NCBI GenBank assembly: GCA_000091205.1
Contig: AP006483.2
From: Cyanidioschyzon merolae
Lineage: Eukaryota
DNA length: 64,000 bases
Direction: 5' to 3' (one strand)
Part shown: positions 2-54,472 of the stretch, one piece after another
Layout of the letters: the number at the start of each line of letters is the position of its first letter
Numbering within the stretch: position 1 is the first letter of the stretch
The notes under the pieces: generated by a model
The model's database searches: none
What the model was told of the DNA's origin: nothing
Seen by the model: the letters and a program-made list of their open reading frames with translations, nothing else
Program-made: the position numbers and the translations under genes

Positions 2-3000
2 TCGATTCGCAGAGAGCCGTACGCAGTGTGGTATACACCATTGGCGGACTACCCGCAACACGATACATACCGGAGCTTTCGGGCTCGAGCGCTGCACCTA
101 TCACTCCAGTGCAAGCTCTCGTGGAGTTCCAGTGTAGCATCCGGAGAGCACGATGCGCAAGGCGCTCAGCTAACCACGTACGCTTTGGCGTCAATGCTCT
201 TCCGAGTGCTCGAACTGGCCGGAGTGAATCGACTACTGGGGCAGTCACCGTATGCCTTCCGCCCAGTATCCCGCAAAGTCGGCCTCATCCGTTCGGGAAA
301 GCGGCGCTATGGTGTACGCTTCGGGGAACTCGTGTCAAGTTTCAGCCTCTCCGCATCGGTCCCCAAACCCTGGGCACTCCGCTGCTACGATGCTTTGCGT
401 CCGACGGAGCACTTTACAGTGCGAGCAGGGCCCGTAATGGCGACGCTGTGCTGGTGCCGTCCAACTGGCTCCGCGTTTGAGTCTATTCGCGGCCGCGCCT
501 TTGAGCAAAATATCCGAGTCTCGGCAGACTGGCTCCGCATCGACCTGAACCGTGGTCTGCTGCTGCTGCAGACCGGGCGAATCCACTATGAGCGTGCACT
601 CGAAGTTGAAAAGATGCAGGGCCTGCTTCTGCCCAGCACCCTGGATACGCTTCGTATCTGGCCGGATTCCTTCGCTGCAGTATTCGCCACGGCGAAGAAA
701 GTCTCACAGCGCACTCTGCTCGCCGGATCCGATGCACTTCATGCGCTGTTTCCGGGGAGCAACTTGGGGAAAGGTGCTGCTGGTGCTGCCGCCACTGCAC
801 CTGCTACCAGAGTCGCCAAGCCGGAGCGCACGCTTGTCGGGTCGCTACGGGACCAGCACGCCGCGGAAGCGGCTCAGAGCGTCGCCGGCACCGCTTCTGG
901 TGCAGTGAACACCGGCGCTGGCACCAGCGGCAGCGGTCTCTGGAACAGCGCACTGAGCGCCCCGAAGAGCACCCAAAGTCAGCAGCATGAGCTGGGCAAC
1001 CGCGCTCGACGTCTCGCCAATGCGCTCGGGATGTCGCTCTCGATGCAGCGCAAGCCAGAGACGGATGTCCTGGACTTGAGGGATTTGTTGCTGCAGGAGC
1101 ATCTAGAGCAGGTCAAGCGGCAGCAGCAACAACAACAACAACAAGAACAGCGGCAGCGAACGCGTTCCGGAAGCGCTGCAGACGCTGCCGCACGCTTCAT
1201 GTCCACGCGGGGCACTCCGGCGAGAGAGCGTGCCAGCGACGCTTCGCTTCAACCTCGAAGCACAGCGATAGCCACTCTCGATGCTGATACATCTGGAGCG
1301 GCTTCGACGACGGCAGCGAGCAGCAGACAAAGAAGAGCGCAGAGCCTGGAAGCGCCGCCATTGTGGCACCAGCGCGGCACTTGGACGAAACCTGGTCATC
1401 AGGGCGCTTTGCCGCAGTCGCTCACCAGTGAGCGACTCTCGGCAACGAGACGCCGTCCAGATGAAGCGAGTCGAGCGTGGGAGCAGTCACGAACGAGTGA
1501 GCGGCGCTCGGAAACGACACTCCATGCAGGCGAGACAACTCAAGTACCGGAGCCGTTGCCACAGACGACAGAGGCGGGCGCTCATGAAGCCAACCTGACC
1601 TCGCCAAACTGGATAGCTTCGTCTTCGGAACGTCCACCAGTTGCTGGTCAGCAGCCGCTACATCCACGCGTTCCCGAGACAGCCGATATCGGACTGCCGG
1701 ATAGCAGTTCCGGTCGAAGTCGTTACACGCAACGTCGCCAACTGCTTTCCCAGCGTGTTCGCTTCCAGTTGACGCTCATCGAGCCCGCTGTCTGGATTCG
1801 CTCCGAACAGGGACGGGATGCGGTGCGTCTGTCAGCCAACCAGGGCATTCTGGATGTCGTGGAGGGCGTCTGTCACCGCGGTGCCCAGGACCTGGGTACC
1901 GAAATCGATTATCGAGTCTGTTTACGCGGTGTGAATATCACCGTCGAGGGCCAGGAACTGTCGCATCCAGCGGAATCGGCACCTATCTTTCTCTACTATA
2001 TTCATCCGGTACCAGCGGAGGACTTGCGGGCTCGCCACGTGGAGGTAGTGGTACCGGCTCTGCACCTGGCGGCCACCGCTCCCGAGTTCCACACGCTTTT
2101 CCGCATTGTACGCGAAGTTCTTCTGAGCAAAGGTAGCCAGGCGTTGCGCGTAAGTCGCATTCTCAAGCCGCTCCGTCAACGCGCTGTGGTCTTCGAGGAT
2201 GCCGACTTTGTGATTGAGCGAGCGCTGACGCTTCGCGCCTTGCTCCAGGATGTGGATCTCTTACTGCTTCATGGCGGTGAGGAGAGTCTCGCCTCTCTCT
2301 GGACGCAGCTGGATAGCAGCAGCGGTAGTACAATGCCACCAGAGAGCCGGCGCGGCAAGATATCCACGGAGGTCGGCAGCACAGGCGCTTCAACCGGTGA
2401 ACGTCTCCTCTGGACGGCAAGTGGCGGTTTGCGCATAACCGGACGAGCAAGTGCTGGTGCTACTGCTGACGCTGCTCTCCGCGAGTCCGAGGAAGGCGCT
2501 GCATCGCGTCCGACGGCACTGAGCGTTGCGACAAGCGCCGGCACTGCCGCCCCACAACCCGTATCCAAGTTACCGACATCCGAACAAGCGTTTGCGTTCC
2601 GTTGGTGGCTTGCTGCACAAGCCCGGGCCTGGCAAGTACTGCTTGTGGATGCATTACGTGGACGCATCCATTATGATGATCGGTCTACAGCGCTGGCAGA
2701 TGAACTCGAGGATCTCGACATCATTCTGGAAGTGGCGCGGGTGCGCTGGTCTCTGCTGCTAAGTCGCCGGCGAGCGTTCCTAGAAGTGAGCATTCGGCGC
2801 ATCTATGGGTTGCAGCGGCGCTATATGAGTGGACGTGAGCTCAACGACTATGGCATTACGGATCTGGTGGTGCAGAATCGCTCACGAGACCTCGACTTGG
2901 GCTGCGTTATTCGTGGTGACTCGTTTCGCTATGTTTCGGTCTCTGAAGGCGTCATTGGTGGGATTATGCGATATTCGCGGTTGACACTGGACATGGCAAA

Positions 3001-4312
3001 GACGCTGCATATTCGCCTCTACGGTGTACTGGTGGATCGTCTCAATGAGTACTTTTTCGGGGTGGCTACGAGCACGAATGCTACCGCTGCTGCATCCGCC
3101 GCACAGGCGACAGTGCCCGCTGCGAGCACCGTAGCGGCACCAGTGCAGCCTCTGTCTGAGACGTCGTCTCTTCCGGGAATGTCGCCTGCAGTCGCAGATG
3201 GCAGGAGGTCGAGCGTATCCAGCATTCTTGCCGGGCAACCTGAGACGAGATCAGCGCACGAGCCGCTGCACGAGGCCCGCGAGGGCTCACTGAACGCGAG
3301 CACTCGACGCAGTCCGTCGCGTTCCGCTGACAACGAAACGCTTGCCCCGACAAGTGGTGGTGGTGGTGGTGCTCACGCTCACGCCACTGCTGGTACTGCT
3401 GGTGCTCTGGCAAGCGTTGGAACTGCACTCGGGCATGATGCCGCCACCTCAGCGTCACCGCCGCAAGCCTCGTTTGGTGCACCGCCTGTGGATGCTGCGC
3501 TTACGGGTACTCCTGGCTATCCCGCTGACCCTTCATCGACGCTATTTTTGCTGCCGCTGGAGGAGAGCGCTCAACGCTACGCCTCCGCCAGCGAGTCGCG
3601 GAGCAGTGCGCGTCCGGGTCGTGGCATCACCGCAACAGGAGCGACCAACACCTCTATAACGCCCGTTCAGATCGACTATGCGTACTTATCCTCATTGGAG
3701 ATCATTGGCTCGTACCACAGCGGCACCGGGAAGGAGCACAGTTTTCTCGATTTCGACGATCTCTGTGTGCTGGTGCCGTCGCTCATGTACCAGGCAGTGA
3801 CAGGTTCGTGGCAAGGTTTTATCGAAATGGTGCGTCGAGACTTTGCCTCAGCTTTTGTTCGCGACGCAATCGGGCAGCTGAGCAAGCGCAAGTTTCTCGG
3901 GTTCCTGCGACGGCCTTTTCGAAGTATATCTACGATCGATGATGGGCGCTCTGCAGGCGAACCAGGCAGCCAGGTGGCGGTACTGGCGTCGCCAGCAGCC
4001 ACAGAAGCAGCCATCCGCCGACGTCGACAACGGGGACGCACGCCAATTGTACAGGCCGTGGAACAGGCTTCCGCAGCAGCAGCAGTACGAAGCACAGCTC
4101 GTGAGCATCTCAGTGAGCTGGTACTTTTCGGTAGTTTACGGCTTGTACGCAGGGCGCTGATGCGTGATCCCCCGGCACGAAGCGCTGCGATGAATCCGGA
4201 GCAGGCGTCAGAGCCACTGAGGCACGAGGATGCAGAGGACAACAACGAAGACGACGGCGACGAAGAAGAAGAAGATGATGATGATGACGAACCGTTAGCT
4301 TTGCCAGCCTAG
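2..4312 (+). CDS. 3' portion (about 1437 codons) of a very large low-complexity protein. The 5' end lies outside the window and the function is unknown.
   Basis: The reading frame is open from nt 2 with no stop until TAG at 4310-4312. The track's start at 26 is a GTG and is not a real start. A 4.3-kb ORF is far too long to arise by chance at this GC. It contains a coding (CAG/CAA)n polyQ tract at ~1118-1150 and a (GGT)5 at ~3354-3370. The C-terminal tail is Asp/Glu-rich and encoded by a (GAN)n tract at 4255-4290. The protein is rich in Ala/Ser/Thr/Arg/Gln. I recognised no catalytic motif by eye. Confidence 0.6.
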   Translation, partial: SIRREPYAVWYTPLADYPQHDTYRSFRARALHLSLQCKLSWSSSVASGEHDAQGAQLTTYALASMLFRVLELAGVNRLLGQSPYAFRPVSRKVGLIRSGKRRYGVRFGELVSSFSLSASVPKPWALRCYDALRPTEHFTVRAGPVMATLCWCRPTGSAFESIRGRAFEQNIRVSADWLRIDLNRGLLLLQTGRIHYERALEVEKMQGLLLPSTLDTLRIWPDSFAAVFATAKKVSQRTLLAGSDALHALFPGSNLGKGAAGAAATAPATRVAKPERTLVGSLRDQHAAEAAQSVAGTASGAVNTGAGTSGSGLWNSALSAPKSTQSQQHELGNRARRLANALGMSLSMQRKPETDVLDLRDLLLQEHLEQVKRQQQQQQQQEQRQRTRSGSAADAAARFMSTRGTPARERASDASLQPRSTAIATLDADTSGAASTTAASSRQRRAQSLEAPPLWHQRGTWTKPGHQGALPQSLTSERLSATRRRPDEASRAWEQSRTSERRSETTLHAGETTQVPEPLPQTTEAGAHEANLTSPNWIASSSERPPVAGQQPLHPRVPETADIGLPDSSSGRSRYTQRRQLLSQRVRFQLTLIEPAVWIRSEQGRDAVRLSANQGILDVVEGVCHRGAQDLGTEIDYRVCLRGVNITVEGQELSHPAESAPIFLYYIHPVPAEDLRARHVEVVVPALHLAATAPEFHTLFRIVREVLLSKGSQALRVSRILKPLRQRAVVFEDADFVIERALTLRALLQDVDLLLLHGGEESLASLWTQLDSSSGSTMPPESRRGKISTEVGSTGASTGERLLWTASGGLRITGRASAGATADAALRESEEGAASRPTALSVATSAGTAAPQPVSKLPTSEQAFAFRWWLAAQARAWQVLLVDALRGRIHYDDRSTALADELEDLDIILEVARVRWSLLLSRRRAFLEVSIRRIYGLQRRYMSGRELNDYGITDLVVQNRSRDLDLGCVIRGDSFRYVSVSEGVIGGIMRYSRLTLDMAKTLHIRLYGVLVDRLNEYFFGVATSTNATAAASAAQATVPAASTVAAPVQPLSETSSLPGMSPAVADGRRSSVSSILAGQPETRSAHEPLHEAREGSLNASTRRSPSRSADNETLAPTSGGGGGAHAHATAGTAGALASVGTALGHDAATSASPPQASFGAPPVDAALTGTPGYPADPSSTLFLLPLEESAQRYASASESRSSARPGRGITATGATNTSITPVQIDYAYLSSLEIIGSYHSGTGKEHSFLDFDDLCVLVPSLMYQAVTGSWQGFIEMVRRDFASAFVRDAIGQLSKRKFLGFLRRPFRSISTIDDGRSAGEPGSQVAVLASPAATEAAIRRRRQRGRTPIVQAVEQASAAAAVRSTAREHLSELVLFGSLRLVRRALMRDPPARSAAMNPEQASEPLRHEDAEDNNEDDGDEEEEDDDDDEPLALPA

Positions 4313-6938
4313 AGCGACGCACCGCGAGGACAAAGACGATCATGATGATGAAGAAGAAACGGGATCAGAAACGGAAGCACCGGTAGATACGCTGGGCTGC
4401 TCGCGCATACGCCACAGATGACGATGAGCATCCTTTTGTACATGGTCATGATGATGCATCGTCGGCTTTGCCGGACCCAGATCGATACTCAGAAAAACGA
4501 ATCCTGGACTACCTGTACCAGTAAATCTTTTTTGTTCTTGTTTGTTGTGCTGCAGGCATTCGAAAACGAAATGCAACCTCTAGAATAGAGGAAGGCCGCG
4601 GAACGGCTTGTGTTGTGATTGCGAGCTGGAGGGAAAGCTGTCTCAGTTGCACAATGCTGTGGTTCAACGGTCAGCAGGTGGATGCATCGCCTTTCTCGTC
4701 GTCCATGAGCTGAAGATCGGGCAACGAAAACAGCGCTCATGAACAGCTATCGTCGCGACTGCTCTCTCGTCGGTGCGTGCCACTCCATACGTTCTCCAAG
4801 CACTACGTTCAGAGATATCACAGGGTGTCACGTTTCCATACAGCCGATACGAAGGGTCAAGAAAGAGATGCGGAGAGGCGAAGAAACGAAACGGCATCCA
4901 GTGGAGAGCGTCACGCGCTGATGAACGCACCCCATTGATTTCGAGCTGAGACGTGAACGCCTAGAACAGGAGCTAAAGGTGTTCGTCGCACATGAAGAGC
5001 ATTCGTTCATTCGAAAGATACGGTAGATCTGCATTTGGGCACTCAAACTGCAACAAACCGTTGTTCGTCAAGAACAGTCAAGCGAGCTTTCCGGCAAGAT
5101 TCGTCCTAGCGACGATTTCATTGTGTGGTCATCTTCAAATCGGTAGACGAGCCGGGTGCTTCGGCACCCGGTCCATCGTCGAAGCCATTCACTGCTTCCA
5201 CCTTTCATGCTCTACTGGTCTGCTCCAAGATAAAGTCGCTCTCCATCAGGCGAAAGCGGCCAAGTAGTACGCATACGAGATTGGCATTCAGTCGATCTTG
5301 GTGCTATCCCATGCTCCGTCATCCGATCCAGTCGAAGGCGTCTCATCAGTTGTAAAAAGTCATTTTCACACGCACTGACTGCTTCAAGAGTCATCCTCTT
5401 TCGTGACACCTTTCTTGAAAAAAGTCGTTCTCTATTTGCACCAGCCCTGACCCGTTGTGTCGCTGCTCAGCTCGTGCACAAGCGGTAGTTGAGCGGCGCA
5501 CTTGTAATCGTTAGCGTGCTTGCAGCGGATAATGTGTTCAAGAGGTGCACGAGGCGTGGAAGATACAGATATAGATTAGGCGACGATTGGTCCAAGTGAG
5601 CCCAGGTGCGTCTGTGTTCCAAGTAAGAAGCGGATATGGAGTGTTGCGACCTCATCAATCCCATTTTGCGAAGCGACAAAGAAAGCGAAAAACGAGCTGA
5701 TAACTACGAACAAGAATACAGGATTCGGAAATCGTAGTGTGGATCATTGGAGCAGCTCGTTCAAGCTTTGTTGCTCATCACGAGAGCACGGAAAAATGCT
5801 ACGGAGCCGATAGAAACGGATGGATTGTCCCACTTTGAGCACTCTGTGATTTCTGAGAAGTCCAACAAGACGCTCAGTCGACCGCTCATGGCAGCGAACA
5901 TGCAGATCTTTGTGATGAGCGTAGACCCCGGTCTACGGAACATCATCTCTTTTGCCGTACCTATAAATGAAGAGTGCGAATCCGAAAACCGGACTAGAAA
6001 GCAGATGAAGCTGCTCAAATTTATGGGTCATGGTATTATCGAGAGTAGCGAACTGCGCACGACAGCAGACATTCTAACAGGTGGAATGACGACATCAGAA
6101 CCCATAACGAGACGCTGGGCACCACGTCGAGCAGAACAGAATACTTTCTAGGCTCTACGCAGATACTATGTGACTGTCGAGGTGGCTACTGCGAGGATCC
6201 TCGGCGGGAGTGCCCGAGACAGCGCTGGGACAGCCGACGTTTTCCGGTCTACGACGGCAAGAAGCGTGCATCGACCAACTTATTCACTCAGTTGGAAAAG
6301 CACATCACCCACGCGTCGCATCATCTACTGGTAGACTACGGCGCTGGACGTGCCGTAGACGCACAGGCTGCGCTCGTGCTCTCTCCACGAGAGCTTACCT
6401 CGAATGAAGGAGTTGCTTCTCTGTGGTTCCCGTCGACGCCTTTGGAATGACATAAACGCATCTCGAGCACGAGTGCACGGCGATGCTTGTGGAAAAAAAA
6501 GCGTGAAACGGAGACAGATGTCCAAAATGGTGAAGAGGGCGTCGACGGATCGTCGGATGTCGAGGCAGTGGACAAGATCGGCTTGTCATCGTTGCATTTC
6601 TGTAGCAGCAACGTCAGCAACCACTTTCTGCCGAGAGACTTGAACCCACTGATCAAGAGACGGGGACATATCGTGCTTCTGGAGCATCCAGCGGCTCAGT
6701 GGCGAGCAAGACTTTCAGGTAGTCGTTTATGATTCAGTTTAGGTATCGTACTGAACCAAGGATGACTTTCGATGCGAAAATCAGTGCCCAGAAGAGCGCG
6801 CATTGGATTCCCGTCAAGATCAAGGCATTGGTATAGTCCGCAATCCGCACAAGCTCGACTACAGCCTATAAACCGAGAACGAGTCTCCTGAGTAGTGCGT
6901 GAACAATAAAAGTCTTCCATTATTCAATATTACAGAGT

Positions 6939-6953
6939 ACACACACACACACA
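6939..6953. repeat. (AC)7 microsatellite.
   Basis: tacacacacacacacag is read directly. Confidence 0.9.
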
Positions 6954-8504: not shown

Positions 8505-11199
8505 GCGCCAGCGGCGGCCAGTGCGCTGCACTTACAGCGTCCCAGTACGGTTGCGTGACCCACCAGTGATGAGGGCGCTGTGCTCTTGCCACACGACTGT
8601 GCTGCACCCGGAGTCGCAGTACGGAGTTGGAAAAGTTGCCGCACTCGACAATGCCAGACGACTCGAAATGTTCGAAAGCGTCATGGCGATATTATGGTAC
8701 ATACATGAACATTACGCCCTCGCCTGCAATCCGCACCGCCTCCTTAAGTTGCGGATCCCATGCTCCCGCTACTGGCGGTGGAGATTCTCTGTGCGCTCGT
8801 CGCGTTCTAGGAGCATGCCTCACAATGCAGAGGCACCGCATTGCATCGAAGACACCTCGTGATAAGTCGTTGATGCGTAAAGGCTCGATGAGGCGCACAC
8901 TTTTCGATTATGCGCTGCGGAATCGTGCCAGCTTTCCAGAACGGATGCCACGAAAAGCGCTAATGAGGTGCTTTGCCCTGCAGCTCGCAGTTGGCGGTAC
9001 GTAGATCTCTGGGCTATTGCCATGGATGTGCATTCGTCTGCACACGCTGCCTCGAGGTCAAAACGATGCAGCTTCGGATCAGCATAGATGGCTCGAATGC
9101 TGTGCTCCGGGCAAGTGCCTGCCGTTTTCGGCTTCTGCCGGTGCCATGACGCAGTCGTCGTGCGGGAACACGGGCATACACTGGGAATCCCGTTCGCAGT
9201 GTCGACTGCGACGTCGCTGTCGCCGCGCACAGGATCCGCTTCGGTGGCGCGGGACGCTACTCCCCGGAAGCGCGTGTCATACAGGCTTCGGCTCTGATCC
9301 AGATCAAGGCCAAAGGTTGCTCGCAACTTTTTCAGCAAGTCCGCTGGGCGTATCATCATCGTCGTCATGGTTACCAGAAAGCAGTTGCTTTCGTCTTGCG
9401 TTCAGGAAACGGCGACGATGCCGAGCCCTGATATGTAGCCGATTCGAGAAGGCGCGGCAGTCCCGTACTTTGCATTCCGAGCAAAGCTGTTATCGAAGTG
9501 CTGCTAGTCGTCATCAGGACGTCTGAAGAGGCTCTAAACGAAGCAATGAATAGATAATCTTTTGTGAGGATGAATCTTAGACACGGGTCGCGCGATACAA
9601 GAGAGAGCGCAGCTCCACTGCAAGCGTGCGAGCCTGGTGCCCACAGCCAGACTGCTGTTCGGTTGGAGCTACCCGGCGGCGGGTTTTGCTACCGTACGCG
9701 TCGTGGAATACCGAATCTTCTACACCCGAGTCAGAATTAATGGAGGGCGTCCTCCACCACTGGCATACGCATACGAGTTTGCATGTCTTTCCATGGTCAT
9801 CAGAACTAGACTTTGCAGGATTTTTCTGCAGCTGCTTCCGTTCCGTTTCTATAGTATCCGGTTTCACATATGCCGGTCTCTGCCTCGCCTCGAGTTTCAG
9901 TGCCAGCACTCGGAGGGCGTTGGTGCCAGCGCTCAAGTCCGAATTATGCCGATTCCGGTATTTCCGAAGCATTTCATGCACGGGTGGAGATTGCGATGCT
10001 CACCTTCTTCGAAGTCAGCGTCGATGAACTCGTCGAAGCGTTGCCATTTGACTATAGTCAGTTGTTCCCGGATGTTCGTGACCACTTCTCCGCCGAGCGC
10101 CGCCTTGGAGCGCGTAAACGCATGCTTCATCACTGCGTATATGGTTCTTGACAGGTTTAGAATGCCCGCCTCGATAAGCACTCCCATTTTCGCACCACGA
10201 GCGGTCCGCGACGCTCAAGGGCATTTCCTGGGCAATGCGTCCTGTGCAGACGCTGGCCGCTGCACGCCCAGGTGCACGCTACGCATTTCGATAGAGAATC
10301 CGCGCAACGAAATGAAGTACGCGGTAAACTAAAGTAAAGGAAGGAGAACCCAGGCCCGAGATCAAGTCGAGAAATTTTGATGCTTCTAAACTTCTTTTGT
10401 GGAAGCAGTGTCGTACGCACCACTTGACGCTATCGCTGTGATGATTCAGGTCTAAATTGAAAACACTTTTGCATGCAAACAGAAGAGGCGGCTTCCTCTA
10501 GCAACGTATCTTTCGAACGGTATTATACTGGTTTCCAATGTTGTTTCATAGATGGCCACTAAGAGATGAGGATTCGTCATTCCAACGGAATCCATTAGTT
10601 TACTTTAGCCTCTCAGTGAGCTTTCGGCAGGAGCTTCTGAAGAAGGCGTCAAGGGACGACATCGGGCGTTTTCCATATTTAATCTACAGTCAGTGAAACT
10701 GCAAATATCCCAGGCCCATGGACGGTAAATGAATATGCACTCACAGACGCCCCGCCAGCCGTTTTCAACCGGTCGACTGCTATCGGCTCTAGTTTCTCCA
10801 TTTACACCTCGACTCTTAGAGGCTACCCCGCAAACCTCGCTTGCGTCAGCTCCTCGGGTCTCTTGTCTTCAGCGCAGCACATAGTCTGCTATTGATAGAA
10901 GCGTTGAATTCTCGGTCCACGAAGTACATGCGTGTATTGCCTCTGGTTGAACTCACTTTTGCAAGAATTCGTCGAAAACATGCCCTCCGTGCCTCTACAG
11001 CATGGTCGTCTTCATGTCGGGCATACACCTTTTCTCCTCCATCCCCCTCTTCTTTTTCTTCGTCACTTACTTTTCTCTGCTCAATCGTCGGCGCCAAGAT
11101 GATTCGTTTCGCTTTTTTCCGGGAGCCGGCAACGGCGGGACCCTTAGACCTCGCTTGCATCTGCAGACCTTTCTGTCGGATTTTGTATTTCTTCAACTG

Positions 11200-12200
11200 A
11201 ACGTAATTCTCTATGCCTTTAGGTGAGGAAGTTAACGAAGGTAGAAGCACTTGCACCAGAAGACGGCGTGTGCCCGGTGTCACCGTACTGAAACCTTCCC
11301 TTATTCGCCACAAATGCAGTCATAAAGTTTAACGATAGAAAGCTCTCCTTCGATGGGGTTCAACCAAGGAGTGCCCGGAGGAATGAGAACCAAATCTATC
11401 CCCCACAGAATCGGTAAAAGCTCGGGCGCAAGGAGAATGGTGAAAAGCCACGGTGTTCAACAGAAGGGCATCACCAAACGTCATGGGAAAGTCTTCAATG
11501 ATTCGACAAGGTGGTTGGTGCTATTGGATAAGCCTTCTCTACGAGCGAAACTGAGGCCACCAAATGAATCCCCTGCGGCTAGAAGAGATGATATCCTTGT
11601 TCTCCTCGGGTTTGATCATATGTAAAACAGGCGCGCTCTCCGCGAGTACCCATATACGTTGTGATTGTTCCGTCCGAATGACGTCTCATCGACTGAAAAA
11701 ACCAACCGAGGAACCTGTGCTTCATACTGATCGCTGAATTTCAGGAACGTTGCAGGTGCGACTTCGATGGAGAATGGCCGTGAATGAACTAGGCTTTTTT
11801 GTTCTACTTTATTCCAATTTTTTCAGGACCATATGATCAATCTTGTGAGAATTAGAGACGCCGATAGCACCTTCTATCGTCGCTTTTGCTTTCCCTAGAA
11901 GATGATCTACTGGTTATTCTCTACCATTGACCGCAAATACGCTTCAAGAATACCAGTTTTTGTAATGGGGCACATGGACCTTACTCTTTCAGTGCTCCTC
12001 AATTAGCTGAGTACTGTGGTATGAATGACATGAAGGAGGAATGCAGTCCTCCTTGCACTGTTCAGTAAAGGATACATACCCTAGAAGTAACTCGTCTACG
12101 ATCTATCGGGTAGATTGGATCGTGATGTCGATCTCCTGTTATAAACTGCGAAAAAACATTCGATGACTCGCAGCGGAGATGAAATAATGAGTTGAAAACC
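11200..12200. repeat. Old, inverted copy of repeat family R2. It is ~75-80% identical to the reverse complement of 43127 to ~44100. Similarity may continue more weakly to ~11050.
   Basis: By-eye alignment shows colinear blocks: CGAATGACGTCTCATCGACTG is shared exactly; ATGGCCGTGAATGAA and AGAGACGCC[A/G]AT are shared; CTGAGTACTG is shared; GAAGGAGGAATG.A..CCTCCTTGC and CAGTAAAG.ATA.ATA are shared. The terminus ATAATGAGTTGAA at ~12190 equals the reverse complement of the R2 5' end TTCAGCTCATAAT. The incidental track ORFs 11353..11625 (+) and 43603..43902 (-) share ITKRHGKV...LVLLDKPSLRAKLRPP versus ITRRQARV...LVLLWKPSLRAKMRPP. Confidence 0.7.
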
Positions 12201-12343
12201 TATAATCTGACATGGGTGTAGAGGCCCGCGTACCGGTCCATTGGCCTTGCATCCTCTGGCAAGAAAGTGTCGGCTGGCAGATCGCGCGTCTTTGCCGCTT
12301 CCGCTCCAGCAGAGCTGATCACGCGCTTCGCAATGCAGCACTG

Positions 12344-24385: not shown

Positions 24386-25867
24386 AGAAGCAGCGAGCGG
24401 ACACGCACCGATAGAAACCCACGAGTCTGCGAACCAGAAACGCGCCACCATCTGGAATAGAAAAGCCTGGACAATGACATATCCTTTTTACACTGACCAC
24501 AGGAAAGCCAGTCAGCAGAAAGCACACACTATCCGAGCACCAGTGCACCAGCTTCGCAGACGCGGTTCAAGAGAAAACAGCAATTTGAAATTTAGACGCG
24601 CCAGCAGCGGCATGCGAGCATCCCTACAGAATGGTGTCTGGCGATAACGATGAGGTCGCAGATTCTCTACTGCTCCATGGGACAGCACACGGTGTGTCGT
24701 ATGTTGACCACGATGCTGCCGAGCTCTGTTGCTCAAAGACGAAAACCTTGTGACTTGGTTCCCCTGGGAAAAGCGGCAATGACGAGGCTTAATTTTGGCG
24801 AGCGCTTCTCAGCTATGGATTGCTGACGGTTGCATGCACGACTCCAATACATACCATCACAGAGCACGAACTGAGGCAGTCAAGCACGCGCTTCGAAGTC
24901 CAGCACAAATTGTCTCCGATTCTCTTAGAGGACACCAGAGCATGGGCAGTGACGTTTATGCGCAGTCGACGCAGCAGGCGCGCATGGCGATACCGTGTAC
25001 CATCTGCGCTTTACGTCGATGCTGTTCAGAGACATGGCGACTTGGGTCGTTGCTGCACGGCGACAACCGTAGAGGCACTTTCAGGGGTATAGCAGAAGTC
25101 CACAGCAGCTGTAGCTTTCCAAGTTTTCGCTGTATCTAGTTGGTGTTCGTTTGGGAAACACTGGTATAGAGAGTGAAGCAATGCTCTGCCCGGACAGTCA
25201 TGATGCTCGCCTGACTGATGGCCAGCGCTTCGCCTTCGCGTATCCACGGGGCGATGTCAGTCGGATCCGCCTATCTGACGCCACGAATAACAGCAACCTG
25301 TCCGAGCTGCGTTCGTATCGCGTTCAGCACGTGCAACGAACGATAGGTAGAACACCCGTACATGAATTTCGAGACACGCCCAGCGGTTACTAATGCGACA
25401 GTGCTGACCCTATGGAGCGGATGCACGACAGAGGCAACAGTGCCGGAACGTGTTACAGCACGAAGCGTCCGCGGCGATCTAGAGACCTATGCATGACAAC
25501 AAAGCGACGAACGAAAGGCATGTATCATCCGGCTCGCGGTGCCTCTGCCGATATCGCGATCTCACATAGTTGCTGCTCTAGACGCATCTTGCTCGCAATA
25601 ACCGGCGTGATGGAATAAGCGCTGGCATCGAATTTCGTTGGACATTGACAGTACAGCCCAATGCTTGATGCAACAGGCGATCAAGCGTCAAAGAGAAGAA
25701 TTGGATACCAGATTTTTTTGGTTTTACAAAACGTTCACATCGACCGCGGATTCCATATCGCGAGATGGGTATTGGCTTTAGGAAGCATCCGTCAAACTGG
25801 ACCCTACCTTCAAGTTCCACCATCGGTACTTTTTCTCTGATAGACTAGTCGTTTCGTACGTTTTATC

Positions 25868-26010: not shown

Positions 26011-26023
26011 CGTTGATATGTAC

Positions 26024-42045: not shown

Positions 42046-43126
42046 CGAAAAACCTTGAGTAATCTTTCCGCACACGTTTGCGAACAAGTCGTCAAAGGAT
42101 TTTGTCGCGTTTTTTTCTATCTCAATCCAACTTCTCCAATAATTGAGCCCAATTAGTTGCAGTAAGACAAAATAGATCAAAGCTTAAAGATGGGTTCTTT
42201 TTGCATTCTACACGGAAGAAAAAGGAAGACAACAGATTTTTTATGAGGATGAATAGTATTATGGTATCGGTTGTTTCACGAACTCTCGTTCGAAGGTGTC
42301 GCAAATCAATTTGTTTCCGGTGACGTTACGAATTCCAACTGCAACATATCGAGGGAACCACTCCAAAAAAGCACCTTAAAATCCGAAAACTACCCGCGAA
42401 TTCAATAGCTCTTATTGCTACTGCTTGAATGTCGAGGTCCTCTAACCAAAGAAAGTTTGAGAAGTCGAAAGGCATTAACACTGCAAGCAGTTATATGTAC
42501 AGCGAAGAAAACAACATTCGTTCTACCACCATAGAGGATACATTGATACACACGGATAGACGCCACCCAGACTTTCTTGACTGGCCTCCTCAAATTGTTT
42601 CGGTTCATCCAGGTACAATAATAGCCTGAGAGACTGGTCCACGAAAATAGGTCACCTCAGCTCTTCGAGTATCTTCTTCAGTTCTGCAAACCGTATGATA
42701 ATGATGGCGGTGTTAGAATCATGGTTCACGAATTGCTTGCTTTTAAAGCCTCTGGTGGCGCAGATCTATGCAAGGGTTCCTCGCACTCGCGCCCTCTGGG
42801 CGACTGCAGTCTCGTCATCTTGCCGTCAGGCAAACAACTTTTCTCGCCTATCTCCCCTCGACTTCTTCTTCATTTGCTTTTCTTCTCTCGGTGGGCGATG
42901 AGAGAAGGATTTTTGCTCTTTGTTTCCGAGGGGCATGCGATGACGGCCCTCCAGGATCCCCAGCATTCATGCCGATACCTTTCCCTTAGATTTTTTACTT
43001 TTGAATATGAAAGCACACCGACCTCGTCTGCTATAAACCGCGAGAAAGCATTCCATTACACTCTCCTAGGGTTGGAGCGCAGTCGAAATGAAACACTATT
43101 CACACTATCGCCTTCGATTATAGCCA

Positions 43127-44490
43127 TTCAGCTCATAATTGTTTCACAAGCGCTGCATGCGCTCGAATACCATTTGTCAGTGTGGAGCAGGTGATCCAAA
43201 CCACTCGGTAATCTACCGCATACATCATAGACGAATTGCCTTTGGGACATATATACTCTTTACTGCGCAGAGCAAGGAGGAATACATTCCTTCTTCAGGC
43301 CAATCACACAGCAGTACTCAGATAGTTGAGGAACACTGAAAGAAACAAGTATATGCGCTCTGTGCCAAAAGTCGATATTCGTGAAGCGTGCTTGGGGCCA
43401 ATGGTGGCAAACGACCCATTGATCGTCTTATTGGAAGGAAAAGGGACAACAGTAGCCGACATTGGCGTCTCTGCTTCTCAACAGCTTGTTCTTGTGGTCC
43501 TGGGAACACCCGGATACAATTACAAAGAAATGACAGATTTCATTCACGGCCATCTTGCACCGAAATTGCAACTAGAGCGTACCTGGAACGTCGCGATCGC
43601 TATTAAGCACAGGACAGTCGGTTTGCGTTTCCAGTCGATGAGACGTCATTCGCTCGAAAAAGTCGGAGCTCATATGGGTATTCGGATAGAAAGAGCCCGT
43701 CATATGTGCGACCGAACTCGTTGAGAAATGGGACATCATCTGTTTCGGCTGGAACGGATTCATGTGGCGGCCTCATTTTCGCCCTAAGAGACGGCTTCCA
43801 CAACAGCACCAAATACATCGAATAACTGATGACTCTTGCCTGACGTCTGGTGATGTCGTTCTGTTGCACAATGCGGCATTTCTCTCTTCCCCTAGCGTTC
43901 AAGCTTTTGTCGATTCTATCGAGGGGTAGAGCTGCTGTTCATTCCTGCGTACTCTACGTGGTTGAAACTCATCGGAAGGGTCTTCTCTATCGTGCAAACG
44001 TAGTGATCGCTCCACGAGGCAAATCGCTAAGGCCTTCAGCACACGGTGACACCGGGGCACATTTCGTCTTTCTTCCGCAAACCCTTCTCCGTCAATTACC
44101 GTCCGCATCTGGCGGCATAGTTAAGTGCGCTGTTTCTAAAACATTAAAGGACGGGCTGGGATATCCACTTCATAAGGTCAAGATGGAGCGAAGCGAGCGG
44201 GGCGCTTCGGCGACAGAAAAGCACCCAGAGCTGACAGAGCACCAAATTGCACAGAGGGCTCGAGAGGTCGAGGAATCCCTGATGTGATGCGTTCAATCAG
44301 AGGCAATAAACACGTGGAATTCGTGGATTGAAACTTGGACGCCGCCATAAATACCAGATGATATGTTGTGCTGAAGAAGAGACCCGTGGGGAGAACGTGA
44401 GCGAACTTCATGGGGCAGCCTCTCGGACTCGAATTGTACACGGAGAAACTGAAGCCGATTGCAGGCTGCAGGTCAAAAAGACTGGGAGGC
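43127..44490. repeat. Repeat family R2, copy A (1364 bp). It is ~100% identical to 51981-53344 and in direct orientation.
   Basis: Constant 8854-bp offset. Track ORFs 43139.., 43326.., 43850.. and 44328.. reappear identically at 51993.., 52180.., 52704.. and 53182... The 5' edge is sharp (TTCAGCTCA[T/A]AATTG). Beyond the 3' edge, similarity decays gradually rather than stopping. Confidence 0.9.
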
Positions 44491-44791
44491 CTCTGCCGAT
44501 TGATATATATATATTGTATGGTTGTGAAAGATGTTCATTTTACTGACAAGCCAGGTGACCTTAGTTATGCCTTTCTTACTCCTGCACCAGGATCGTCACC
44601 AAGGCCGGCGGCGTTTCGTCTGCTCGGCAATAAACCTCACCTGAGTCTGCAGGGCGGTTGCGAGCTGTACGGAAACACGCCTGCGGCGCATGATCCAGAA
44701 CACACCTGCGCGTCAATGTACTGTTACTACAGCGCTCCGCTGATAATTCTCAGAGGGACGTTTACTCGTGCAGAGACTGCTAATGCGGTAA

Positions 44792-51980: not shown

Positions 51981-53344
51981 TTCAGCTCAAAATTGTTTCA
52001 CAAGCGCTGCATGCGCTCGAATACCATTTGTCAGTGTGGAGCAGGTGATCCAAACCACTCGGTAATCTACCGCATACATCATAGACGAATTGCCTTTGGG
52101 ACATATATACTCTTTACTGCGCAGAGCAAGGAGGAATACATTCCTTCTTCAGGCCAATCACACAGCAGTACTCAGATAGTTGAGGAACACTGAAAGAAAC
52201 AAGTATATGCGCTCTGTGCCAAAAGTCGATATTCGTGAAGCGTGCTTGGGGCCAATGGTGGCAAACGACCCATTGATCGTCTTATTGGAAGGAAAAGGGA
52301 CAACAGTAGCCGACATTGGCGTCTCTGCTTCTCAACAGCTTGTTCTTGTGGTCCTGGGAACACCCGGATACAATTACAAAGAAATGACAGATTTCATTCA
52401 CGGCCATCTTGCACCGAAATTGCAACTAGAGCGTACCTGGAACGTCGCGATCGCTATTAAGCACAGGACAGTCGGTTTGCGTTTCCAGTCGATGAGACGT
52501 CATTCGCTCGAAAAAGTCGGAGCTCATATGGGTATTCGGATAGAAAGAGCCCGTCATATGTGCGACCGAACTCGTTGAGAAATGGGACATCATCTGTTTC
52601 GGCTGGAACGGATTCATGTGGCGGCCTCATTTTCGCCCTAAGAGACGGCTTCCACAACAGCACCAAATACATCGAATAACTGATGACTCTTGCCTGACGT
52701 CTGGTGATGTCGTTCTGTTGCACAATGCGGCATTTCTCTCTTCCCCTAGCGTTCAAGCTTTTGTCGATTCTATCGAGGGGTAGAGCTGCTGTTCATTCCT
52801 GCGTACTCTACGTGGTTGAAACTCATCGGAAGGGTCTTCTCTATCGTGCAAACGTAGTGATCGCTCCACGAGGCAAATCGCTAAGGCCTTCAGCACACGG
52901 TGACACCGGGGCACATTTCGTCTTTCTTCCGCAAACCCTTCTCCGTCAATTACCGTCCGCATCTGGCGGCATAGTTAAGTGCGCTGTTTCTAAAACATTA
53001 AAGGACGGGCTGGGATATCCACTTCATAAGGTCAAGATGGAGCGAAGCGAGCGGGGCGCTTCGGCGACAGAAAAGCACCCAGAGCTGACAGAGCACCAAA
53101 TTGCACAGAGGGCTCGAGAGGTCGAGGAATCCCTGATGTGATGCGTTCAATCAGAGGCAATAAACACGTGGAATTCGTGGATTGAAACTTGGACGCCGCC
53201 ATAAATACCAGATGATATGTTGTGCTGAAGAAGAGACCCGTGGGGAGAACGTGAGCGAACTTCATGGGGCAGCCTCTCGGACTCGAATTGTACACGGAGA
53301 AACTGAAGCCGATTGCAGGCTGCAGGTCAAAAAGACTGGGAGGC
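51981..53344. repeat. Repeat family R2, copy B. It fills the intergenic space between divergent bL32 (-) and HMG-CoA lyase (+) and ends 67 bp before the HMGL ATG.
   Basis: See copy A. Confidence 0.9.
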
Positions 53345-53410
53345 GTCTGCGCGAGGAGATTAATATACTCTCTGGCTGCGAAACGTTCACGGACCTCTGA
53401 CCGTTCGTCT

Positions 53411-54472
53411 ATGTACAAGCTAACTTGGTGTCTGCGCCACTCGCGTCCAGTTTTTGGACGGAACTCTGTGTCGAATAATCCCGGCTCCCGGCACCAACTC
53501 TCTAACTTTTCTCTCACTGCGAAAAAGCCAGTCCAAATCGTCGAGGTCGGTCCACGCGATGGCTTGCAGACGGAGCGGCCTCTTCCGGTTGAGGACAGGA
53601 CGGAGCTTATACGCCGCCTTGTACTCGACGCTGGATTGCACAAGGTTGAAGTTGGCAGTTTCGTCTCTGAAAAGCGAGTACCGCAAATGGCTCAAACGGA
53701 GCAGGTCATTGCTCGACTACAGGCTACTCTTTCCACCTCCGTGCAGAAGCACGTAACTTTTCCTGTTTTGGTGCCAAACGAGAAGCATCTCGAGCGAGCT
53801 TTGAACGCTGGCTGTCAGGATTTTGCAGTCTTTGTTTCATCCACGGAAGGGTTCAGCCAACGGAACCTAGGCTGCTCTGTAAGCGAGAGCCTCGAGAAGG
53901 TGGACACTATCTTTCGCCGGCTGGAACAGGAACCTAACCGCGACGCCTTTTCAGTTCGAGGGTATGTTTCATGCATTTTCATGTGCCCCTTCGATGGTGA
54001 CGTATCCCCGGCTCATGTACGGCAAGTTGCGAGCGCACTGCTGGAGATGGGTTGCTACGAAGTGTCTCTCGGGGATACGCTCGGCATGGGAACTCCGGCT
54101 CATGTGCGGCGTCTTCTGGATGAACTTTTTGGTCACGAGACTAGAACGGCTGGCAAGTACGCCGTCCATTTCCATGATACATATGGCATGGCCGTTGCTA
54201 ACATTTTATGTGCCATTGAAGAATACGATATTTGTGTAGTGGATAGCTCTGTTGGGGGTCTCGGCGGTTGTCCGTTTGCACCTGGCTCCACGGGAAATGT
54301 TGCCACAGAGGACGTCCTCTACCTATTGCAAGGCCTAGAACGAGCCGAAAGGGGGGTTGATCTAATGAAACTCACTAACATAGGGGCCTGGATTAATGCG
54401 AAATTCGGGCGTGAAACACGATCAAAAGCTGCTCTAGCCCTTTTGCGGAAGCAGCGCAGCGACGAAGGATAG
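53411..54472 (+). CDS. HMGCL: Hydroxymethylglutaryl-CoA lyase (HMGL-like aldolase family).
   Basis: The sequence contains VQIVEVGPRDGLQ (the HMGL signature), the region GCQDFAVFVSSTEGFSQRNLGCS, and HFHDTYGMAVANILCAIE...VDSSVGGLGGCPFAPG (metal-binding His pair and catalytic Cys). The track start at 53264 lies inside the repeat and is part of an ORF read-through. The first ATG after the repeat is at 53411 (MYKLTWCLRHSRP..., a possible presequence). Confidence 0.9.
   Translation: MYKLTWCLRHSRPVFGRNSVSNNPGSRHQLSNFSLTAKKPVQIVEVGPRDGLQTERPLPVEDRTELIRRLVLDAGLHKVEVGSFVSEKRVPQMAQTEQVIARLQATLSTSVQKHVTFPVLVPNEKHLERALNAGCQDFAVFVSSTEGFSQRNLGCSVSESLEKVDTIFRRLEQEPNRDAFSVRGYVSCIFMCPFDGDVSPAHVRQVASALLEMGCYEVSLGDTLGMGTPAHVRRLLDELFGHETRTAGKYAVHFHDTYGMAVANILCAIEEYDICVVDSSVGGLGGCPFAPGSTGNVATEDVLYLLQGLERAERGVDLMKLTNIGAWINAKFGRETRSKAALALLRKQRSDEG

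What the first reader, a model, noticed from the sequence alone, without database searches (positions are those of the whole stretch)
11200..12200. Repeat R2 has an old inverted homologue directly upstream of the ABC1K gene, which defines a real element terminus
The reverse complement of R2 copy A (43127 to ~44100) aligns colinearly, at roughly 75-80% identity, with 12200 back to ~11200. Several exact 10-21 nt blocks are shared. The alignment ends exactly at the sharp 5' boundary of R2 (TTCAGCTCATAAT versus ATAATGAGTTGAA at ~12190). This supports R2 being a discrete element with a defined end rather than an arbitrary segmental duplication.

All three copies abut the 5' regions of genes (the ABC1K, TatB-like and HMGL genes). 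The family may therefore carry or attract promoter function.

No ORF is conserved between the old and young copies, so R2 is probably non-coding.
Basis: seen in the sequence. Interest (0 to 1): 0.55.

Follow-up and report, generated by a model that had tools for sequence, protein, structure and literature searches.

The report
Decayed Fanzor-carrying transposon copies
The repeat is a dead "cut-and-paste" DNA transposon of a hot-spring red alga, a relative of the main repeat of Cyanidioschyzon merolae: it still carries recognisable wrecks of a transposase gene and a Fanzor nuclease gene, so it is a real mobile element with real ends, but an ordinary one.

Summary
An old inverted homologue of R2 lies at 10687-12204. 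It aligns colinearly with R2-A at about 69% identity (not 75-80%), over the whole 1.4-1.5 kb rather than 1 kb (BLAST E 4e-100).

R2 is not non-coding in origin. It is a decayed transposon of the IS630/Tc1-mariner type.
- The middle is a transposase wreck: Pfam DDE_3 at 37-38 bits, and E 4e-19 to intact transposases.
- The invariant 21-mer encodes the catalytic "VDETSF" motif.
- The 3' 350 nt are the C-terminus of a Fanzor1 gene, homologous to C. merolae CMe-1 (E 3e-12 protein, 3e-36 DNA).
- The 5' end (TATAG...) matches the CMe-1A consensus and lies 8 nt outside the A/B identity boundary.

The window holds four R2 copies, and related families (R1, R3, R4) bring transposon relics to about 30% of it. 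None is present at the orthologous loci of sister species.

The 99.9% identity of A and B is best read as ectopic gene conversion between two old copies, not fresh transposition. The identity stops about 55 nt short of the 3' end.

The promoter idea is untested. It is not empty for copy B, whose 3' end lies about 8 nt from the HMG-CoA lyase start codon. Overall this is an ordinary relic.

The parts
10687..12204 (-). R2-old: a complete but decayed copy of the element. Its 5' end (TATAG) is at 12204 and its 3' end at 10687.
   Evidence: Self-BLAST E 4.5e-100. Profile search covers 10681-12214. The 3' junction reads TA(10685-10686)|CAGTCAGTGAAAC. The 5' TATAG is shared with A and with CMe-1A.
11328..11867 (-). 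Transposase pseudogene (DDE_3, IS630/Tc1-mariner type) inside R2-old. It retains SVDETSF (first catalytic D) and PWLNPIEG (catalytic E).
   Evidence: tblastn with intact DDE_3 proteins gives E down to 9e-18. A translation stitched across two frame switches scores Pfam DDE_3 36.8 bits, E 4.5e-9 and NCBIfam IS630 E 5e-12. It finds 12 database homologues, best E 4e-19.
11675..11695 (-). The 21-nt block that is invariant in all full copies (the same block is at 43632-43652 and 52486-52506). It encodes the catalytic-site motif (S)VDETSF.
   Evidence: and alignment A3.
11016..11246 (-). Relic of the Fanzor1 upstream region and N-terminus in R2-old (CMe-1A positions 810-1047).
   Evidence: nhmmer with the CMe-1A consensus, E 1.8e-5. 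ORF 10846-11313 begins with a KGPAVAGSRKKAKR... stretch resembling the CMe-1 N-terminus (by eye).
10741..10993 (-). Relic of the Fanzor1 C-terminus in R2-old (CMe-1A positions 2834-3086). It encodes YFVDREFNASIN.
   Evidence: nhmmer E 1e-24. tblastn with CMe-1 gives E 1.7e-7 and 3e-5. A HMMER library search with this ORF returns 36 relatives.
42500..43108 (-). R2-D: a short derivative lacking the transposase cassette and most of Fanzor (CMe-1A 782-1066 joined to 2839-3107). Its 5' end lies 10 nt from the 5' end of R2-A, head-to-head.
   Evidence: The same deletion junction is found in an unrelated locus, L020 3027-3558. The 3' junction reads TA(42498-42499)|CAGCGAAGAAAAC, abutting R1-4.
43119..44549 (+). 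R2-A: a full copy. Transposase relic 43245-44105; Fanzor1 C-terminal relic 44151-44498; diverged 3' tail 44498-44549.
   Evidence: DDE_3 38.5 bits; E 3e-12; E 2.6e-36.
51981..53403 (+). R2-B: a full copy. Coordinates 51981-53344 differ from A at one base (copy A 43127-44490, offset 8854). Transposase relic 52099-52959; Fanzor1 relic 53003-53365; diverged tail to about 53403.
43127..44497 (+). The A/B near-identity tract (3 mismatches in 1371 nt), read as an ectopic gene-conversion tract inside older homology.
   Evidence: beyond the tract, at the same fixed offset, identity is 20/32 (p 8e-6), while the 5' flank is at chance; a profile built from old and D only still aligns the tails of A and B. 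A and B share population-specific alleles.
53411..53413 (+). Probable true start codon of the HMG-CoA lyase gene, about 8 nt beyond the 3' end of R2-B. The 49 codons of the ORF upstream of it are the in-frame Fanzor relic and tail.
   Evidence: Orthologues are 351 and 343 aa long and align from window residue about 55.
9721..10690 (+). R1-1: a truncated copy of a second decayed transposon family, broken at a TA by the 3' end of R2-old.

Best explanation
R2 is a family of dead copies of a cut-and-paste DNA transposon of the IS630/Tc1-mariner superfamily that carried a Fanzor1 (eukaryotic TnpB-like) gene. It is a close relative of CMe-1A, the main interspersed repeat of Cyanidioschyzon merolae.

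Inferred full-length element: a short 5' end (TATAG...), then a transposase of about 290 aa, then a Fanzor1 gene of about 730 aa, then a 3' end (...CTG) next to TA. Contig L017, from the same hot-spring sample series, shows the transposase-Fanzor1 part of this arrangement with both genes still open.

The copies in the window are deletion derivatives:
- The old copy keeps the transposase and a Fanzor gene reduced to its first ~50 and last ~90 codons.
- D has lost the transposase as well.
- A and B keep the transposase and only the Fanzor C-terminus.

History (inferred): the copies inserted into intergenic DNA after this lineage split from Cyanidiococcus-like relatives, and then decayed neutrally to K2P about 0.4-0.55. 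The transposase frames of A and B are broken and the two copies are identical across them, so their near-identity did not arise from their own transposition. It comes from recent and probably continuing ectopic gene conversion between two old direct copies 8.85 kb apart, in an organism with very efficient homologous recombination.

Shown: the homologies, the copy boundaries, the absence from sister loci, and the limits of the identity tract.
Inferred: the order of deletions, conversion as the mechanism, and the TA target.
For: Transposase:
- Pfam DDE_3 at 36.8 and 38.5 bits, above the 28.6 cut-off.
- NCBIfam IS630, E 5e-12.
- 12 database homologues, all carrying DDE_3, best E 4e-19, with the motifs DETSFGR / LLDNVAFHHS / PPYSPWFNPIEG aligned.
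- An unbiased tblastn with those intact proteins hits the old, A and B copies.

Fanzor1:
- tblastn with C. merolae CMe-1 hits A at E 3e-12, B at 1.7e-12 and the old copy at 1.7e-7.
- DNA homology to the CMe-1A consensus: E 2.6e-36 for A, 1e-24 for the old copy, and 3.8e-22 plus 1e-17 for D.
- L017 carries an open DDE_3 gene directly followed by a CMe-1 homologue (E 4e-116). L018 has the same gene pair.

Discreteness and mobility:
- Common ends in unrelated flanks.
- The same deletion derivative sits at a second, unrelated locus, L020. A further copy is on L019.
- No R2, R1 or transposase signal in about 90 kb of orthologous sister-species loci. Their intergenic spacers are shorter by about the size of the element, for example 972 vs 2338 nt between SMC6 and the lyase gene.

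Gene conversion:
- One mismatch in 43127-44490.
- Beyond the tract, at the same fixed offset, identity is 20/32 (p 8e-6), falling to chance further out. The 5' flank is at chance.
- The tails of A and B each align to a profile built only from the old copy and D.
- The same pattern occurs in family R1: 877 nt at 99.3% inside 1350 nt of about 52% homology, E 1.8e-17.
- A and B share population-specific alleles in L007 and L008.
- Efficient homologous recombination in this algal class is documented in PMC13353863.
Against: - Terminal inverted repeats are not demonstrable. Only about 7 of 11 terminal bases match between the two ends, and Bao and Jurka also found no terminal repeats in CMe-1A.
- The TA duplication is seen at only about 5 of 8 termini.
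- The Fanzor relics give no Pfam, NCBIfam or PDB hit on their own. Their identification rests on homology to the published CMe-1 sequence.
- The transposase translations used were stitched by eye across two frame shifts. The tblastn is independent of that stitching.
- The population evidence for concerted evolution comes from metagenome contigs, in which a 1.4-kb repeat could have been collapsed by the assembler.
- Trans-mobilisation of a dead copy by an active relative cannot be excluded outright.
Confidence: 0.88

Rival explanations
1. A and B are a young pair made by recent transposition, that is, trans-mobilisation of a dead copy by an active transposase elsewhere in the genome. The old copy is simply an earlier insertion.
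For: - 99.9% identity over 1.36 kb, with a sharp 5' edge within 8 nt of the true terminus.
- Open transposase and Fanzor genes of the same lineage exist in the same environment (L017).
- A deletion derivative has clearly moved (D and the L020 copy).
Against: - Cut-and-paste transposition copies both termini. Here the last ~55 nt of the element are only 44-62% identical between A and B, yet still homologous at the same offset and to the other copies.
- The first 8 nt also differ.
- R1 shows the same pattern, an internal identity tract inside older homology.
- A and B co-vary between populations.
Confidence: 0.1
2. R2, or at least its 3' module, has been taken over by the host as a regulatory element. 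It supplies the promoter and 5' UTR of the downstream genes (HMG-CoA lyase, Hcf106/TatB-like), and that function explains why A and B are kept identical.
For: - The 3' end of R2-B lies about 8 nt from the lyase start codon. About 906 nt of spacer lie upstream of R2-B, against 972 nt for the whole spacer in the sister species, so the element separates the gene from essentially its entire former upstream region.
- The 3' end of R2-A lies 243 nt from the TatB-like start.
- From general knowledge of TnpB/Fanzor systems (not tested here): their guide RNA is transcribed through the 3' end of the element and out into the flank, so outward transcription at that end is built in.
Against: - No transcript data are available.
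- The old copy faces the ABC1K gene with its other end, about 0.8 kb from that gene's start. D faces nothing.
- All transposon relics in the window are intergenic, as expected in a compact genome. About 30% of the window is relic DNA, so adjacency to gene starts is expected by default.
- RNAalifold finds no conserved fold in the 3' 260 nt.
- Homogenisation is also seen in R1 copies that have no such position.
Confidence: 0.25
3. R2 is a non-mobile segmental duplication or a structured non-coding RNA gene family.
For: No frame is conserved between copies (tblastx gives equal scores in all six frames). There are few indels in the first kilobase: 11 events.
Against: - The flanks of all copies are unrelated.
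- No Rfam family and no tRNA were found.
- There is no covariation support.
- Protein-level homology to transposase and Fanzor explains the sequence fully.
Confidence: 0.02

Closest known systems
CMe-1A, the Fanzor1 element of Cyanidioschyzon merolae (Bao and Jurka 2013, PMC3627910). It is probably the same as the 253-copy, 3.2-kb 'WSV486-like' interspersed repeat of Nozaki et al. 2007 (PMC1955436); that equivalence is my inference.
   Same: - DNA homology at both ends: the 5' TATAG...TTGTTTCA...CGCGGTTTATAGCAG stretch, and the last ~350 nt including the identical 22-mer AAAAAGACTGGGAGGCGTCTGC.
- The same Fanzor1 protein lineage.
- The same 3' ...CTG|TA ending.
- A dispersed, old, intergenic repeat in the same algal class.
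   Different: - R2 carries a transposase cassette of about 1.05 kb between the first ~85 nt and the Fanzor upstream region. CMe-1A lacks it.
- R2 has lost most of the Fanzor gene, which CMe-1A keeps.
- R2 lacks the 5' TE-N2_CMe module of CMe-1A. That module occurs separately in the window, as family R4.
- CMe-1A was left unclassified. R2 and L017 tie this lineage to an IS630/Tc1-mariner-type transposase.
Mariner/Tc1-type transposons that carry Fanzor1 (PUl-1, PUl-2 and PGv-1 in Bao and Jurka 2013).
   Same: A DDE transposase followed by a Fanzor1 gene in a single element, with TA at the junctions. Relatives occur in giant-virus-like contigs (L018 carries DUF5832).
   Different: PUl-1 and PUl-2 have clear 24-33 bp terminal inverted repeats and TA duplications. 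These could not be shown for R2. No sequence comparison with PUl-1 or PGv-1 was made here.
IS630 family and Tc1 (DD34E) transposases.
   Same: DDE_3 domain; the motifs DE(T/S)xF, DNxxxH and PPYSPxxNPIE; 34 residues between the second D and the E in the intact homologues (hand count on alignment A3).
   Different: In the old R2 copy the second catalytic D is replaced by N, and all R2 copies have stops and frame shifts. The intact homologues are short (215-260 aa).

Membership tests
IS630/Tc1-mariner superfamily DNA transposon | Encodes a DDE/D transposase of the DDE_3 / IS630 type | tested here: met
   As a pseudogene: Pfam DDE_3 at 36.8 and 38.5 bits, above the 28.6 cut-off. NCBIfam IS630 E 5e-12. 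tblastn with intact homologues. Motifs aligned in A3.
IS630/Tc1-mariner superfamily DNA transposon | TA target-site duplication | tested here: inconclusive
   TA directly abuts the 3' end of the old copy and of D and the 5' TATAG of A and the old copy. It is absent or mutated at the 3' ends of A and B and at the 5' ends of D and B. No empty site was available.
IS630/Tc1-mariner superfamily DNA transposon | Terminal inverted repeats | tested here: inconclusive
   The 3' end, read in reverse complement, is CAGTCAGTGAA. The 5' end is CATTCAGCTCA. About 7 of 11 positions match. This is not better than weak, and CMe-1A is reported to lack terminal repeats (PMC3627910).
IS630/Tc1-mariner superfamily DNA transposon | Dispersed copies with common ends in unrelated flanks; absent from orthologous sites in relatives | tested here: met
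   Four copies in the window plus copies on L019 and L020. No signal in L013-L016.
CMe-1A-type Fanzor1 element | Encodes a Fanzor1 protein homologous to CMe-1 | tested here: met
   Relic only. C-terminal residues 645-734: E 3e-12 (A), 1.7e-12 (B), 1.7e-7 (old copy). The N-terminal region is present in the old copy and D, by DNA homology to CMe-1A 782-1066. The middle of the gene is deleted.
CMe-1A-type Fanzor1 element | DNA homology to the CMe-1A consensus at the element ends | tested here: met
   nhmmer E 2.6e-36 (A), 2.6e-37 (B), 1e-24 (old copy), 3.8e-22 and 1e-17 (D). 5' ends aligned.
CMe-1A-type Fanzor1 element | 5' module identical to TE-N2_CMe (the first 635 bp of CMe-1A) | tested here: not met
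   R2 copies begin at CMe-1A position about 786. TE-N2-like sequence occurs elsewhere in the window (25725-26229, 33069-33318, 61694-62326) and not next to R2.
Fanzor/TnpB RNA-guided nuclease system (active) | Intact RuvC nuclease ORF and a structured guide RNA at the 3' end | tested here: not met
   Only the last ~90 codons of the ORF survive, with the RD.NAA.N motif as FVDREFNASIN or FVD*NLDAAIN. RNAalifold gives -19 kcal/mol with a covariation term of +1. No Pfam TNB hit for R2.
Solo LTR / Helitron / SINE-LINE | TG..CA ends with a 4-6 bp duplication; or 5'-TC..CTRR-3' with a 3' hairpin; or variable 5' truncation with a 3' tail | tested here: not met
   The ends read TATAG... and ...CTG|TA. 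Both ends are shared by all full copies. The coding content is a DDE transposase.

The most novel reading that the evidence does not exclude
The 3' module of R2, made of the Fanzor1 C-terminus and the region where a Fanzor guide RNA would be transcribed outward through the element end, has been domesticated as the promoter and 5' UTR of the HMG-CoA lyase gene. Its start codon lies about 8 nt beyond, or possibly within, the end of R2-B. The same module may serve the Hcf106/TatB-like gene. Concerted evolution of A and B would then reflect maintenance of that function. A more sober new point is that R2 and L017 supply the missing transposase partner of CMe-1A, the major repeat of C. merolae, whose class was reported as unknown.
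Probability: 0.2. Interest if true: 0.5.

Novelty: new member of a known kind. Interest (0 to 1): 0.3.

Why it matters
For genome annotation: about 30% of this window, and probably much of the extra intergenic DNA that separates this alga from its compact relatives, consists of decayed Fanzor-carrying transposons. Gene callers turn these into spurious ORFs. One example is a false 49-codon N-terminal extension of the HMG-CoA lyase gene.

For transposon biology: the copies link the unclassified CMe-1A/'WSV486' repeat of the model alga C. merolae to an IS630/Tc1-mariner-type transposase. Contig L017 points to a still-open transposase plus Fanzor1 pair in the same springs.

For genome evolution: the window gives clean examples of ectopic gene conversion between dispersed relics, and of an inversion whose two breakpoints carry inverted copies of a related family.

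None of this is surprising to a specialist.

Tried and rejected
- tblastx between the old and young copies scored equally in all six frames. I first read this as non-coding. That was wrong: neutral decay after insertion gives this pattern. Consensus building and protein-to-DNA searches recovered the genes.
- Rfam at gathering thresholds and a tRNA scan found nothing.
- The metagenome scan with the 21-mer returned only the same three copies, in conspecific contigs.
- Single-frame Pfam scans of R2-A found nothing because frame shifts split the domain.
- Searches for the Fanzor relics in Pfam, NCBIfam and PDB sequences, using R3 frames, library hits, the R1 region and profile A4, found nothing. 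Only the published CMe-1 sequence made the link.
- Permutation tests on freely aligned 70-nt tails were not significant. The fixed-offset binomial test and the independent-profile alignment were used instead.
- No remainder of R1-1 was found beyond the 5' end of R2-old, so a simple nested-insertion model for that junction is incomplete.
- Solo-LTR, Helitron and LINE readings were considered and dropped on end structure and coding content.
- The bacterial promoter and terminator scanner was not used because the organism is a eukaryote.
Full report
**Organism and setting**

The window is nuclear DNA of an uncultured hot-spring red alga of the class Cyanidiophyceae.
- It carries long intron-free ORFs for typical eukaryotic and plastid-related proteins: Hobbit, ABC1 kinase, Ski2- and Mtr4-like helicases, HSP90, SMC6, Hcf106/TatB-like and HMG-CoA lyase.
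- The ABC1 kinase is 75% identical to that of Cyanidiococcus yangmingshanensis.
- The same locus occurs at over 99% identity in several JGI and Logan metagenome contigs.

**Checking the observation**

Self-BLAST finds the following:
- R2-A (43127-44529) and R2-B (51981-53383) match at 99.1%.
- An inverted homologue matches in two colinear blocks: 11211-12207 vs 44120-43116 (68.8%, 1013 columns, E 4.5e-100) and 10744-10955 vs 44495-44288 (72%).

A three-way alignment and a profile search show that the old copy covers the whole element, not only 1 kb. The exact blocks are real, including a 21-mer at 43632-43652 and 11675-11695.

The profile search also found a fourth copy, D, at 42500-43108 on the minus strand (E 3.5e-44). 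D is internally deleted and lies head-to-head with A, their 5' ends 10 nt apart.

**What R2 is**

tblastx between copies scores equally in all six frames. That is what neutral decay after insertion produces, so it does not show that the element never coded for protein.

Transposase evidence:
- The old copy translates, with two frame switches, to ...LVFSVDETSFGR...YGYSRRA...LLLNTVAFHHS...LVLIPPGTPWLNPIEGELSIVK. R2-A gives a more damaged version.
- Both translations match Pfam DDE_3 above its gathering score: 36.8 and 38.5 bits, E about 1e-9. The old copy also matches NCBIfam IS630 transposase at E 5e-12.
- A search of 5.8 billion proteins returned 12 hits, all DDE_3, best E 4e-19. The catalytic motifs align.
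- Using those intact proteins in tblastn, which needs no stitching, recovers the old copy (11328-11867), A (43245-44105) and B (52099-52959).
- The invariant 21-mer encodes the first catalytic motif, VDETSF.

Fanzor evidence, for the 3' part of the element:
- A HMMER search with the old copy's ORF 10846-11313 gave 36 short relatives. Their consensus is ...LALVSSTxGNKRxEFVNRDFNAAINIRRCAVLKTRP...FVGxPLxLE..LKPIAGGRSKK.
- The supplement of Bao and Jurka 2013 (PMC3627910) holds the Fanzor1 protein CMe-1 and the 3169-nt consensus CMe-1A of C. merolae. The C-terminus of CMe-1 reads ...LALVSTTSDGKKRMEFVNRDFNAAINIRRCAVLEKRPPELTRENFVGQPLKVELYEKKLEAVVGGRSKKTGRRL.
- tblastn with CMe-1 hits A (44302-44487, E 3e-12), B (53156-53365, E 1.7e-12) and the old copy (10754-11011, E 1.7e-7).
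- At DNA level, CMe-1A positions 2737-3086 match A at E 2.6e-36 (68.5% identity). Positions 2834-3086 and 810-1047 match the old copy. Positions 782-1066 and 2839-3107 match D.

R2 is therefore a transposase cassette plus an internally deleted Fanzor1 gene between CMe-1A-like ends.

Contig L017, from the same hot-spring sample series, carries an open 251-aa DDE_3 gene directly followed by a CMe-1 homologue (38.6% identity over 534 residues, E 4e-116). L018, a giant-virus-like contig, has the same gene pair. This is the known architecture of Mariner/Tc1 elements that captured Fanzor1 (PMC3627910).

The old copy and D share one Fanzor deletion, about 1047-1066 joined to 2832-2839 in CMe-1A coordinates. 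The same junction is present in an unrelated locus, L020, so that derivative has moved. A, B and the copy on L019 carry a different deletion. This explains the badly aligned, gap-rich stretch between A and the old copy (44130-44290).

**The termini**

5' end: A, the old copy and the CMe-1A consensus all read TATAG(N)4TTCA..TCA...TTGTTTCA, with unrelated sequence upstream. The real 5' end is therefore at 43119 in A and 12204 in the old copy, 8 nt outside the A/B identity boundary at 43127.

3' end: the old copy and D end ...CACTGACTG|TA and ...TTCGCTG|TA, and CMe-1A has ...CCACTACTG|TA. On the other strand these read TA|CAGTCAGTGAAAC and TA|CAGCGAAGAAAAC, a Tc1-like start.

A convincing terminal inverted repeat and a consistent TA duplication could not be shown. 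I leave those two membership features as inconclusive.

**Insertion history**

The orthologous loci of a Cyanidiococcus genome, two Cyanidiococcus-like metagenome contigs and Cyanidium caldarium (L013-L016) contain no R2, R1 or transposase signal. Their spacers are shorter:

| Spacer | Window | Sister species |
|---|---|---|
| SMC6 to lyase gene | 2338 nt | 972 nt (L015) |
| CPP1 to TatB (divergent) | 3775 nt, of which about 3410 nt are R1-4 + D + A | 153 nt (Cyanidium), 2184 nt (L015) |

**Why A and B are nearly identical**

- The transposase frames of A and B are broken, and the two copies are identical across them, so neither copy could have moved on its own.
- Between 43127 and 44490 there is a single mismatch. 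The identity then collapses. At the same fixed offset the next 32 nt are 20/32 identical (binomial p 8e-6) and the next 68 nt are 30/68 identical (p 5e-4). After that identity is at chance, and the 5' flank is at chance too.
- A profile built only from the old copy and D still aligns A to 44547 and B to 53387. The last ~55 nt of both elements are therefore old, diverged homologues.
- Transposition would have copied these terminal bases. A gene-conversion tract need not include them.
- Family R1 shows the same thing: 877 nt at 99.3% inside 1350 nt of old homology (about 52% identity, E 1.8e-17).
- In conspecific contigs L007 and L008, A and B share population-specific alleles at seven sites. 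That is the signature of concerted evolution, with the caveat that metagenome assemblers can collapse repeats.
- Homologous recombination is highly efficient in these algae (PMC13353863).

**The promoter idea**

Orthologues of the lyase are 351 and 343 aa long and align from window residue about 55. The true start is therefore Met50, at 53411. The first 49 codons of the ORF are the Fanzor C-terminal relic (MGQPLGLELYTEKLKPIAGCRSKRLGG...) and the element tail, which happen to be in frame.

The 3' end of R2-B (about 53403) is thus about 8 nt from the start codon. About 906 nt of spacer lie upstream of the element, against 972 nt for the whole spacer in L015. Transcription of the lyase gene must either start inside R2-B or cross all of it. 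The 3' end of R2-A lies 243 nt from the TatB-like start.

Against a general promoter role:
- The old copy faces the ABC1K gene with its other end, about 0.8 kb from that gene's start.
- D faces nothing.
- About 30% of the window is relic DNA, all of it intergenic.
- RNAalifold gives no support for a conserved fold in the 3' 260 nt.

I rate exaptation at copy B as possible (about 0.2-0.25) and testable.

**Comparison with what is known**

The closest known family is CMe-1A of C. merolae: about 150 copies, about 3.2 kb, no terminal repeats, class reported as unknown (PMC3627910). It is very probably the '253-copy WSV486-like repeat' that makes up 5% of that genome (PMC1955436). That link is my inference. 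It rests on size and copy number, and on Bao and Jurka listing a Fanzor1 in white spot syndrome virus.

R2 differs from CMe-1A in three ways:
- It carries the transposase cassette.
- It has lost most of Fanzor.
- It lacks the TE-N2_CMe 5' module.

It is best filed as a new, decayed member of the Fanzor1-carrying IS630/Tc1-mariner elements.

**Verdict**

The repeat and its terminus are real. The element is an ordinary transposon relic, not a non-coding functional repeat. Interest is modest.

Noticed in passing
window 9721-10690(+), 31406-32750(+), 36705-38083(-), 41130-42498(+), 54767-56130(+), 57934-59312(+): A second decayed transposon family, R1: about 1360 nt, six copies, pairwise E 1e-48 to 1e-87. 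Its consensus, read on the minus strand, hits Pfam DDE_3 (E 1.4e-5) and weakly the TnpB/Fanzor zinc-ribbon domain (E 0.007; motif CHRC..CMKC..RNPDFNAAIIIL). It probably has the same architecture as R2 but belongs to a different lineage.
   Followed up: partly
window 31434-32310 and 41170-42046: The 99.3% 'R1' repeat pair is only the inner 877 nt of two R1 copies that are homologous over 1350 nt at about 52% identity elsewhere. This is a second gene-conversion tract, of the same kind as in R2-A/B.
   Followed up: yes
window 45661-47477 and 57837-62535 (R3 copies at 46551-47369 on the plus strand and 59892-61700 on the minus strand): Compared with a Cyanidiococcus-like contig (L015) and Cyanidium caldarium (L016), the block SMC6-lyase-SOUL-Tmemb14 is inverted in this alga. 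Each breakpoint interval holds a copy of a third transposase plus Fanzor relic family (R3; another copy lies at 4502-6939), and the two are in opposite orientation. This suggests an inversion by recombination between inverted transposon copies.
   Followed up: partly
window 61694-62326(+), 25725-26229(+), 33069-33318(-); L020 3583-3821: Family R4 is homologous to TE-N2_CMe, the first 635 bp of the C. merolae CMe-1A consensus. The best copy scores E 1e-107 at 77% identity, about as close to the consensus as copies in C. merolae itself are reported to be.
   Followed up: partly
window 53264-53410: The long ORF of the HMG-CoA lyase gene begins with 49 codons that are a Fanzor C-terminal relic in frame. 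Gene callers would over-extend the protein. The same relic opens a spurious 181-codon ORF at 44410-44955 that overlaps the TatB-like gene.
   Followed up: yes
L017 (JGI 3300050385, 2425 nt) and L018 (ENA ERZ27313254, 5773 nt): Contigs with open reading frames for a DDE_3 transposase directly followed by a CMe-1-type Fanzor1. L018 also carries DUF5832, which I recall as a domain of giant viruses (not checked here). These may be active relatives of R2. The L017 contig ends inside the Fanzor gene.
   Followed up: partly
window 42498-42499, 10685-10686 and 43109-43118; L020 3025-3034: Relics cluster end to end. R1-4 and R2-D share a single TA. R2-old abuts a TA inside R1-1, but the rest of R1-1 is missing on the other side. 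D and A are head-to-head, 10 nt apart. In L020 an R1 copy and a D-type copy again abut, at different ends. This may reflect a preference for inserting into or beside older copies, or simply that these are the only tolerated sites.
   Followed up: partly
L009 start (window 43127); ends of L004-L006 (window 31460-31560): Short-read metagenome contigs break exactly at the edges of the near-identical tracts. The tracts limit assembly, so the sequence of repeats inside the long contigs should be treated with some caution.
   Followed up: no
No C. merolae protein appeared among the best hits for the ABC1 kinase or SMC6, although Cyanidiococcus and Cyanidium did. Either the collection lacks it or the word filter missed it. 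The exact position of this alga within the class was not resolved.
   Followed up: no
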